A stretch of 64,000 nucleotides of DNA from Chrysomallon squamiferum. Lineage: Eukaryota > Animalia > Mollusca. The notes beneath the pieces are model-generated. The model was not told where the DNA came from, made no database searches, and saw only the letters and a list, made by a program, of their open reading frames with translations. A program made the position numbers and the translations under genes. Each line of letters begins with the position of its first letter. Position 1 is the first letter of the stretch. The stretch spans positions 8,742,001 to 8,806,000 of the forward strand of contig CM022669.1 in NCBI GenBank assembly GCA_012295275.1. The letters are read 5' to 3'. Positions 40,501-43,500 of this stretch are shown here, one piece after another.

Positions 40501-43500
40501 ATGCAGCAGTAAGAACAAACGTGATTAGTAGTTAATGAACATTTGATGTTGATACAGAATTAAAATGAAAGAAAAATATGTGCTGTCAATTTCATAGTTA
40601 GGATTCCCAAAACAACACATATTTCCTGTATACATTTCACTGGTTTTCTACCAAACATGACCATTTCACAGCAAACAATAACCAACATGGGAATATGTAT
40701 GTATATATATATATGAAGTGAATACTAAAGTTGCTCATCAAAAATGGTCTGACATTAATTTAGACTTGCTGGTAAAACAGCTGACTGATTTGACAGAGAA
40801 CTTGCTGCCTCAGTTTATTTATGTGTTACTTATTTGTTACACCATCAAGCCATGATGTTTGCTACATGCAGCAGAACAAACAGAGTTCAACGTGTGCTTT
40901 CAACAGTGCCCTCCACCTGTACCTACCACTGAAGATTCAGCAATAAATCCAATCTGTAACTGATTGGAATCGGAGGGAGATAGATTTGATATTGAGGTAA
41001 TATCTACTGGACGGCCTGGGCACTTTCCATTTCTGACTGATGTAATCTGAAAAAAGTGACAATTTCAAGTTACTGTTCACACACGTACCCTCGCATATTC
41101 TGACGCCCACGACACATCGAGCTGATTAGAAATTGTTGGAGAAAGTCTACAAAGGGAGGTAATATCAACAGGTCTTCCTGGTCTCTTGGGTTCAACACCT
41201 GGTTTAGTGGTGGGTAAAGGATTCTGCAAGAAGAAAGCAATTTTAATTTAACTTGAATATTACAATTTCAAATATTCTCTGCAACCCAATTATACTGTAT
41301 TAATTTTAAAAAATTAAAAAATTTAAAAAACACACAAATACATACAAAATACAAGTAACAAAAATAATATACCAAATAATTACAAAAGTGGACCTTTATT
41401 TTTAACTTAGGAACATTATGTTGAAACCAGTTGTTTTCCAAATATTCCAGACACATACCTATTTTAGGCCAACATATGTAGCCAATCATTTATTTTCTTT
41501 TAATTCAATATATATCTGTTTTGTAAGGTACCAAACTTTTGGGTAAACAAGAGTTCATTACACAGAAATCCAAACTGGAAAAATCTGTGCACCTTCATAC
41601 AACCAAATAAGAACATGGAAAAGTCATGGTATACATATTTAGCATGTTAATATGAATATGCTAAGTTTACTGTATGACAGCAATATACATACCGGCAATG
41701 GAGCCATTTTGCCATTTACACGCACACATATACTTGGTGGAAAATTGTCATCCTGCTCACAGCTAGTTTCCAACAAACAAAATCTAAGAAAAGAAAATTA
41801 AAGATACAAACTATAAAGTGCTAATAGTTTTACCCAATAACATGACAACAGAACTGATAATACAAAAAAATGAACTTAAAATTTGTTTTAAATAAAACTG
41901 TGACCGAATCAACAATGAAATTAAAAAGCAAGATTATTAAATGACTTAGCAACTACTAGGGTACATGCACATATTTATTTCTGTAAAATAGGAATTTGTC
42001 CACCATATATAAAATTTAACAAAGAAATATGCTTAAAATGTTTTAGTTTTTGTTTTATGCAAAATCATTTTATTGTTTATAATACATCTACTCATTCTTT
42101 AGTAACACTTACCTTAACTGCACCTGAACCATGTATTCACATCTAGCTCCTGGTCGAAAATCTCTGAATAAAAAAAAAAGTCAAATGTGTAACTTTTCAT
42201 TCTGACAAACTAAACATTAAATATTCAGTGCTATATACAACACTTACAACAGCAATGACAACTGCTACATAACATGCTGAGGAGGTTTTGAGAGGATAAA
42301 TGTTGAACTGTGATGTAAAATGATGCCTTCTGTATTCTGACCAGTATGAATGTGATCTTCAGTGATATTGTAATCTATCATTACTTTCAATGAGGTGTGC
42401 AGCTATCAGTAGCTATAATGTCGTACACAGTGAAAGAAGTTACCTTGACATTGCAATGTCCTGTGCTTGCTGCGGTGTGAGGTGAAATACAAAGTAGGAC
42501 TCCTGAAACCTGCTGCTGTTTTTTGGAACTAAAGAAATAAAAAATGTTAAGCAGAAATTAATATATAAACAATTACATCAGACTGAAATACTAGCTGTCT
42601 TGTTAAAGTTGGCAATTTTCTAAATCTCATTAGAAATTATTTTAAAGCATTAACGATTACTGATCTTTTGGTATTGCAGCCCATTCTAAGAATTTTTTTT
42701 AAATTAATCTTTTTAAGGTAACTAAGCATAAATGTTTTGTGTTTACAATACTGTGATACTTGCTGCTGAAATATTCACATATAAACAAGGCTAAAATTAA
42801 ATTCTTTTTTTTTCCCCAAGTGATGTTTTTTTCTGAGGAAACAGTGTTTACAGAATTATTTGATTTTTGTATTCACTTCAATGACCTCTACTACAAACAC
42901 ATTTTTTTAAATGTCCACATTTTAATTTGATTAAATTCTGGTAACCATTTAGAAAAAATAAGAATAATTAGCAAACAAATGTTTTTTAATGAAAAAAGTT
43001 TCTGTTGTTGTTATTTTCAAATTTTATTATTTGTAGCAAATGATAAACAAACGAGTAGAAATATAGATACACGAAGACATTAAACAGGATGTTTCTATAA
43101 CAGACCAGAGAATTCAACTCAGTGCAGAAATGTACACACTTCAGTGAAGTATGCTGAGCCTGAGTTTATCTGGGTCATATTTACATGTTTACAACAATTC
43201 ATCTAATTTGTTTGAAAAGGTCACAAATATATTTTAAAATGTTCATATTATTATTATTTTTTATCTTTTTGAAATACATGGCATCTCAAAATTTGCTATC
43301 TAGAAAAATTGTTTCAAGACATGAAATGTATTAAATTAAATTCAACAAAAACCAGTGAAAATTTCGTAAATACACAAATACATATCTTTATGACAGTACA
43401 GCATTTGATACAAGAACATCCTGCACCAATGAGATAGAAAATGTACTTTTGCAACACCCAGAATTATTTTAGAATATACTGTTAACAATACTTTTTTTAA

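What the first reader, a model, noticed from the sequence alone, without database searches (positions are those of the whole stretch)
40927..41223. Tandemly duplicated PINIT-motif exons in PIAS separated by a 42-nt spacer: a probable mutually exclusive specificity switch
Seen: two phase 0-0 exons on the minus strand. A (41223-41089) reads [46 protein letters not shown] (41046-40927) reads [41 protein letters not shown] keeps [12 protein letters not shown] and SNQL while using different codons at many of these residues, has its own acceptor and donor and no stops. The spacer is 42 nt, has a branch-like cagtaac close to the donor, and contains an in-frame TGA if retained. Established: the PINIT domain of Siz/PIAS ligases contributes to substrate and lysine selection and to nuclear retention; very short donor-to-branch distances enforce mutually exclusive splicing. 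Inference: one PIAS gene makes two ligases with different PINIT surfaces. I know of no described case, but could not search.
Basis: partly seen in the sequence, partly recalled or inferred. Interest (0 to 1): 0.88.

Follow-up and report, generated by a model that had tools for sequence, protein, structure and literature searches.

The report
Swappable PINIT exon in snail PIAS
A snail's gene for the SUMO ligase PIAS carries an old, intact second copy of one exon 42 bases behind the first, which likely lets it swap part of a domain that helps pick targets, as gene models of sea hares and pond snails do with the same exon, although the RNA seen here uses only the first copy.

Summary
Observation confirmed. 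In this PIAS gene of a snail close to Gigantopelta aegis, exon A (135 nt) is followed after 42 nt by B (120 nt), a phase 0-0 partial copy whose donor is in codon register with A's. B evolved under protein constraint: 25/33 second but 12/33 third codon positions match A, omega about 0.1, neutral decay reproduced in at most 1 of 1,500 simulations per setting. Against: contigs of 4 RNA runs from one study splice only A; B appears only unspliced at intron-level depth; no B-like protein was found. New support: gene models of Aplysia, Biomphalaria, Physella and Bradybaena swap exactly this 45-residue exon for a conserved alternative (8 of 8 pairs). Whether that exon and B share one origin is unresolved. 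Best reading: a minor or tissue-restricted mutually exclusive exon, kept apart from A by the short spacer; a changed substrate choice is inferred only, and a weakened ligase is as likely. No paper found; the scan's notes hold no PIAS case.

The parts
41693..41783 (-). upstream PIAS exon (ends ..NGKMAPLP, phase 0 donor)
   Evidence: RNA joints 41783>42113 and 41223>41693 in 4 of 4 runs; tblastn with Gigantopelta PIAS
41089..41223 (-). exon A, canonical PINIT-motif exon, 45 codons
   Evidence: spliced on both sides in 4 of 4 RNA runs; 98% identical to Gigantopelta aegis PIAS; Pfam PINIT E 6e-9
41047..41088 (-). 42-nt spacer: A donor, GTAAC at +16..+20, B acceptor; two in-frame TGA if retained
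   Evidence: sequence; the other 11 introns listed for this gene are 172-2987 nt
40927..41046 (-). exon B, diverged partial duplicate of A, 40 codons, candidate mutually exclusive exon
   Evidence: 18/33 identical residues, codon-position identity 20/25/12 of 33, omega about 0.1; neutral decay rejected; splice sites score within the range of the gene's true sites; no spliced RNA seen
39918..40256 (-). minisatellite of 7 units of 42-47 nt, each a copy of the acceptor and first codons of the next exon
   Evidence: (family D1); RNA uses only the last unit
39838..39943 (-). downstream PIAS exon (starts GYCLSVYLV, phase 0 acceptor)
   Evidence: RNA joints 39942>41088 and 39359>39838 in 4 of 4 runs
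37432..48594 (-). PIAS gene coding span (SAP, PINIT, SP-RING, acidic tail); 5' end read from the sequence
   Evidence: tblastn of Gigantopelta isoform X1 covers residues 9-613 in order; zf-MIZ E 1e-19; start MADAADLK read

Best explanation
B is an old tandem duplicate of the PINIT-motif exon that has been kept under protein-level selection and is likely still used as a minor or tissue-restricted alternative to A, so the gene would make a second PIAS with a different PINIT edge. Shown: duplication, same phase, intact frame and splice sites, coding constraint, A as the main form. Inferred: the upstream donor (41693) joins either A or B and either joins 39943; the 42-nt spacer puts any branch point under 50 nt from A's donor, so A and B cannot be joined, and retention gives stops. 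Inferred from a model of the Gigantopelta protein: B keeps the two strands and the short helix (V, I, L>I, L, L, V>I, W>F) and changes the leading loop and the loop after the last strand, so the domain would fold but present other loops. Whether that retargets or weakens the ligase is open (about even).
For: Codon-position identity 20/25/12 of 33; pairwise omega 0.11, omega=1 rejected (2dL 13.8) and omega=0.5, the value expected if only A is constrained, rejected (2dL 6.0). Neutral-B simulation met the observed pattern in at most 1 of 1,500 runs in each of 21 settings for the two joint tests, against up to 12% for a coding B. A freed B has a 50% chance of a stop, splice or frameshift lesion after 0.035-0.064 substitutions per site, far less than the near-saturated A-B synonymous distance. 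B is 40% GC; 1.4% of 431 intron windows of that size reach this. B donor 5.3 and acceptor 6.7 bits against -0.7 to 10.8 and 1.8 to 12.0 for 11 introns of the gene. Run X5 lists 6 differences in the intron below B and none in A, spacer or B (too few to be significant). Eight of 8 isoform pairs of Aplysia, Biomphalaria, Physella (2 genes) and Bradybaena differ only inside this 45-residue exon, from its first to its last residue, and none of 269 stored proteins holds two copies. Steric interference below 50 nt is an established mechanism (PMC5740500, PMC4165533, passages).
Against: No contig of 4 RNA runs joins 41693 to 41046 or 40927 to 39943; A joints have depth 10-55; B lies only in unspliced contigs of depth 2.6, 4.5 and 5.1 (3 of 4 runs), like other intron pieces. 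In X2 a 4.5-deep unspliced branch survived next to a 55-deep exon path while no B joint did, which suggests only a few percent use at most in that sample (inference; contigs drop rare forms, one study, tissue unknown). All 4 Gigantopelta and 10 Haliotis proteins carry A only. No B-like protein in three searches (all weak for a 40-residue query). B breaks four invariant residues, of which the heterobranch alternative exon keeps C25 and W39 in all four species. No B-like copy in 6 animal PIAS loci from metagenomes.
Confidence: 0.66

Rival explanations
1. B was a working mutually exclusive exon for most of its history but was silenced recently; it is intact only because too little time has passed.
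For: No spliced use in 4 RNA runs; no B isoform among 4 Gigantopelta RefSeq proteins; B is more diverged in core residues than the heterobranch alternative exon and 5 residues shorter.
Against: The window for an unlesioned dead exon is short (95% lesioned by 0.15-0.28 substitutions per site) compared with the age of the duplicate; both splice sites remain strong; the RNA comes from one study and from contigs only.
Confidence: 0.2
2. The region works as a regulatory brake: the intron after A is retained or slowly spliced, giving a stop 4 codons after A (a PIAS without SP-RING, or decay), and B's use is incidental.
For: Unspliced RNA contigs cross A's donor, the spacer, B and up to 287 nt of intron in 3 of 4 runs, while the intron before A has no cover in X2-X4.
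Against: Does not explain protein-level constraint on B; other introns show the same low cover (42500-43147); libraries may hold pre-mRNA or DNA.
Confidence: 0.07
3. B is a cassette included together with A (85 codons in frame), giving a doubled PINIT edge.
For: Both exons are phase 0-0, so co-inclusion keeps the frame; 42 nt is at the lower limit of excisable introns in C. elegans (about 40 nt, PMC4165533); the limit in snails was not tested.
Against: No 41089>41046 joint; shortest other intron in the gene is 172 nt; no stored protein has two copies; two copies would compete for one place in the sandwich fold (inference).
Confidence: 0.04
4. B is a dead duplicate that has decayed neutrally since birth.
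For: No spliced use and no orthologue found.
Against: Second codon positions far better kept than third, no stop, omega 0.5 rejected, simulation at most 1 of 1,500.
Confidence: 0.03

Closest known systems
Heterobranch PIAS isoform pairs in public gene models: Aplysia XP_005094294.1 / XP_012935663.1, Biomphalaria XP_055885389.1 / XP_055885392.1, Physella XP_059148331.1 / XP_059148332.1 and XP_059148349.1 / XP_059148350.1, Bradybaena BFY97268.1 / BFY97269.1
   Same: The same 45-residue exon is replaced either-or; the scaffold (D-I/V-T/S, LSP, N, last strand) is kept and the leading loop and the loop after the last strand change.
   Different: Their alternative exon is 45 residues, keeps C25 and W39 and has YG-x-P for PGRP; B is 40 residues, keeps PGRP, is 9-14/33 identical to them and 18/33 to its own A. 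Their genomic layout and spacer were not seen. They are automatic annotations, not described as a finding in the papers searched.
Mutually exclusive exons from tandem duplication with steric interference (57 human clusters with donor-to-branch distance under 50 nt, PMC5740500; C. elegans egl-15 5B/5A, let-2 9/10, PMC4165533; passages read)
   Same: Homologous neighbours, same phase, lengths divisible by three, very short intervening intron.
   Different: There both exons have junction evidence; here only A has. PIAS is not mentioned in the main text of PMC5740500 (supplements not seen).
Mammalian PIASy/PIAS4 splice variant lacking the PINIT motif (Wong et al. 2004, seen only as cited in PMC11142376, passage)
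   Same: Alternative splicing that alters the PINIT motif region and lowers target sumoylation.
   Different: A deletion by exon skipping, not a swap between duplicated exons.
Oyster alternative oxidase, duplicated exon 10 (PMC5589949, abstract)
   Same: Molluscan tandem exon duplication, one conserved major copy and one diverged minor copy that rises under stress.
   Different: Terminal exon of a different protein; both forms shown by mRNA.

Membership tests
Siz/PIAS SUMO E3 ligases | SAP, PINIT and SP-RING domains in order | tested here: met
   tblastn of Gigantopelta PIAS X1 over the window; Pfam PINIT and zf-MIZ; solved-structure matches PIAS2 4FO9, PIAS3 4MVT, Siz1 3I2D (on the Gigantopelta protein)
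Mutually exclusive exons from tandem duplication | neighbouring homologous exons that encode the same part of the protein | tested here: met
   33 codons in register to the donor, both match PINIT profile positions 97-127
Mutually exclusive exons from tandem duplication | compatible phase and splice sites, open frame | tested here: met
   phase 0-0, AG/GT, scores within the gene's own range
Mutually exclusive exons from tandem duplication | each exon is spliced to both flanking exons in mRNA | tested here: inconclusive
   met for A in 4 of 4 runs; no B joint seen, but only contigs of one study were available and they drop rare forms
Mutually exclusive exons from tandem duplication | never included together | tested here: inconclusive
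Mutually exclusive exons from tandem duplication | both copies under purifying selection | tested here: met
   omega about 0.1 between A and B; neutral B rejected; a B-to-B comparison across species was not possible
Steric-interference class | donor-to-branch distance under about 50 nt | tested here: met
   whole intron is 42 nt; candidates at +19 and about +24; branch point itself not mapped
Steric-interference class | the short intron cannot be excised in this organism | not testable with these tools
   needs a minigene or a genome-wide intron size distribution; no whole genome held
Heterobranch alternative PINIT exon (orthology) | B and the heterobranch exon form one clade | tested here: inconclusive
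   together in the best tree under 3 alignments (support 65/74, 81/82, 89/73; long branches), but B with its own A is not rejected (p-AU 0.32-0.45); share N8, differ at G9, P15, R17, L35
Substrate-specificity switch | isoforms differ in substrate or lysine choice | not testable with these tools
   PINIT is needed for PCNA K164 contact in Siz1 (PMC9225081) and contributes to selectivity (PMC7012886); no assay here

The most novel reading that the evidence does not exclude
Gastropods have a splice switch in the substrate-facing loops of their PIAS SUMO ligase: the PINIT-motif exon was duplicated once before the neomphalid and heterobranch lines parted, or twice independently, and the second copy gives a tissue-specific ligase with other targets. 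No such swap was found described for any Siz/PIAS gene.
Probability: 0.3. Interest if true: 0.75.

Novelty: new member of a known kind. Interest (0 to 1): 0.52.

Why it matters
How few SUMO E3 ligases choose among many targets is still open. A natural pair of PIAS proteins that differ only in one PINIT exon, and that exist in tractable animals (Aplysia, Biomphalaria, Physella), is a ready-made test of what the PINIT loops do. If B and the heterobranch exon arose separately, the same exon was duplicated and diverged in the same two loops twice; if they share an origin, the switch is as old as the main gastropod lines. The splicing mechanism itself is well known, and for this window the use of B is not yet shown.

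Tried and rejected
Loose end at 41005 in all 4 RNA runs: not in the window; a 22-nt chance match in an unrelated 4-kb contig; rejected as a splice into B. Searches for B-like proteins: longer lengths, 4 candidates, none significant; near lengths, no candidate; phmmer on 1.84 billion representatives, 0 hits at E 0.001, not even A-type PIAS, so the query is too short to be informative. The Atlas gave no answer for B. Metagenome scan: 9 loci, 6 animal PIAS loci (two apparently the same organism), 3 chance matches dropped; no second copy by tblastn at E 1; 4 of the 6 cover the whole intron below the exon. Inverted repeats that could act as docking/selector pairs: only AT-rich, 70-90% arms, nothing convincing. 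Two apparent second copies in P0018 and P0030 were proline-rich chance matches. The tree cannot place B. The B isoform itself was not folded, because only unjoined sequences are taken; structure statements rest on the Gigantopelta A-form model (mean pLDDT 59, 67-83 in the exon region). Papers on Siz1 structure and on the PIASy variant were not held; the Siz1 residue number Phe299 and its role are recalled. No whole genome was held, so intron sizes and PIAS copy number in this genome were not checked.

Full report
Observation. Retaining the spacer gives two in-frame TGA codons. The host gene is a PIAS: tblastn with Gigantopelta aegis isoform X1 covers it exon by exon, and exon A is 98% identical to that protein, the best of 81 hits. 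The tail is only 77% identical, so this is a related snail; the species was not determined. One contig of run X5, which behaves as DNA, runs through A, the spacer and B, so the pair is not an assembly error.

B is a duplicate under protein constraint. The last 33 codons of A and B align without gaps and end at the same donor position. Eighteen residues are identical; first, second and third codon positions match in 20, 25 and 12 of 33. A pairwise codon model gives omega 0.11; omega 1 and omega 0.5 fit worse (2dL 13.8 and 6.0), while 0.02-0.3 are not excluded. I simulated a constrained A and a neutral B over 7 distances and 3 transition ratios, 1,500 runs each: the two joint tests (third position at most 12 with second at least 25, or with at least 18 identical residues, and no stop) were met in at most 1 run per setting, and a looser test in at most 2; a coding B met the joint tests in up to 12%. 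The simulation starts from today's A and ignores indels. A freed B would be lesioned with 50% chance after 0.035-0.064 substitutions per site. B's donor and acceptor score within the range of 11 introns of the gene, 9 of them RNA-confirmed; 20 of 487 GT and 16 of 404 AG positions score as high, counts that include the true sites.

RNA does not show B in use. The run search found 4 RNA runs of one study and one run of another, all as contigs. In 4 of 4 RNA runs the joints are 41693>41223 and 41088>39942, depth 10-55; no joint uses B's acceptor or donor, joins A to B, or skips both. B is covered in 3 of 4 runs by unspliced contigs of depth 2.6, 4.5 and 5.1 that run on into the intron; similar pieces lie in another intron at 42500-43147. 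Contigs drop rare forms and the tissue is unknown, so this shows that A is the main form there, not that B is never used.

Relatives. Of 269 stored proteins, 260 hold this region: 252 A-type, 8 of a second type (H), none B-type; 9 are fragments without it. The set was seeded with A, and large clusters were listed only in part (15 of 18 Octopus, 15 of 42 Mytilus, 15 of 24 scallop, 15 of 17 Mercenaria, 15 of 32 Daphnia). All 4 Gigantopelta and 10 Haliotis proteins are A-type. The 8 H proteins come from Aplysia, Biomphalaria, Physella (two genes) and Bradybaena. Each has a partner of equal length that differs only within the 45 residues of this exon, from the first to the last (8 of 8 pairs, 16-21 of 45 identical inside). 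The four distinct H exons are 28-35 of 45 identical to each other, so H is conserved across these snails. These are gene models; I did not see their reads or their DNA. Six animal PIAS loci from metagenomes show no second copy.

One origin or two. In three alignments B joins H in the best tree, with weak support and long branches, and a tree with B beside its own A is not rejected (p-AU 0.32-0.45). B shares N8 with all four H exons but keeps G9, P15, R17 and L35 of its own A. B's SNQL occurs otherwise only in Gigantopelta and Haliotis among the 154 proteins held at that point. The question is open.

What the swap would change. In the model of the Gigantopelta protein (closest folds PIAS2, PIAS3, Siz1), exon A covers a long loop (218-235), a short strand, a short helix, and strand 250-258. 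B keeps the hydrophobic pattern of these elements, is 5 residues shorter in the loop, and changes the residues after the last strand. It also replaces R14, C25, T30 and W39, invariant in 44 of 44 distinct A-type segments; yeast Siz1 and Siz2 have Tyr at the W position. A Siz1 Phe aligns with position 41, in the loop that both B and H change; I recall it as Phe299, needed for PCNA K164 modification, but the paper was not held and searches for the residue found nothing. That PINIT is needed for PCNA K164 contact and contributes to selectivity is stated in PMC9225081 and PMC7012886 (passages); Siz1/Siz2 PINIT structure in PMC8591536 (passages). A PINIT-deleted PIASy variant lowers sumoylation (as cited in PMC11142376, passage). 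So retargeting and weakening are both possible.

Exclusivity. The intron between A and B is 42 nt, so any branch point in it lies under 50 nt from A's donor, the criterion used in PMC5740500 (passages); C. elegans pairs with introns under 40 nt are never joined (PMC4165533, passages). The other introns of this gene are 172 nt or longer. Both exons keep the frame, so decay could not police co-inclusion; steric interference is the likely guard. It is inferred, not tested.

Novelty. Searches for PIAS with mutually exclusive exons (0 papers), PIAS splicing in molluscs (listings only, none on the subject among those listed), PIASy exon 6 and gastropod exon duplication found no description; subscription papers and supplements were not covered. 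Amphioxus PIAS splices its tail, not PINIT (PMC5719053, passages). A molluscan precedent for a diverged duplicated exon is oyster AOX (PMC5589949, abstract). The scan's notes list like cases in other genes but none in PIAS. Verdict: a real, old, selected duplicate exon, likely a minor mutually exclusive partner (0.66), a new member of a known kind, made more interesting by the same swap in heterobranch gene models. Interest 0.52.

Noticed in passing
window 39918-40256 (-): Seven 42-47 nt repeats whose unit is the acceptor plus first codons of the exon at 39943; four upstream units keep an AG, some scoring like true acceptors (5.3-7.4 bits), yet RNA uses only the last.
   Followed up: partly
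window 46669-46754 (-): A 23-nt minisatellite (3.5 copies) starts at the donor of the exon 46867-46755; each unit carries GTAAGC, a copy of the donor. No RNA was laid here.
   Followed up: no
window 46088-45351 (-): A 245-codon stop-free frame inside a PIAS intron, with a possible phase-2 acceptor near 46045 matching the phase of the SAP exon donor: a candidate alternative last exon giving a SAP-only protein, or a nested gene. No Pfam match above cut-off, no match to stored PIAS proteins, outside the stretches laid with RNA.
   Followed up: partly
window 30610-30482 and 28235-28122 (-): Weak matches to the alternative tail of Gigantopelta isoform X2, ending DVISLD: probably an alternative last exon far downstream (E 0.5-0.8).
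   Followed up: no
proteins P0155, P0164, P0173, P0177, P0181, P0216, P0218, P0219: Heterobranch PIAS alternative PINIT exon; in its core it resembles other gastropods' A (SNQI in Aplysia) more than the heterobranchs' own A (SNAI), and both Physella paralogues keep it.
   Followed up: yes
window about 18956-15833 (-), 50604-52078 (+), 870-8150 (+): Neighbouring genes read from open frames: a MEF2-like gene, a complex I NDUFS7-like gene head-to-head with PIAS, and a peptide-amidating-enzyme-like gene; names are recalled from the motifs, not searched.
   Followed up: no
L003:705-706: The A-like exon in this locus ends at a GC donor.
   Followed up: no
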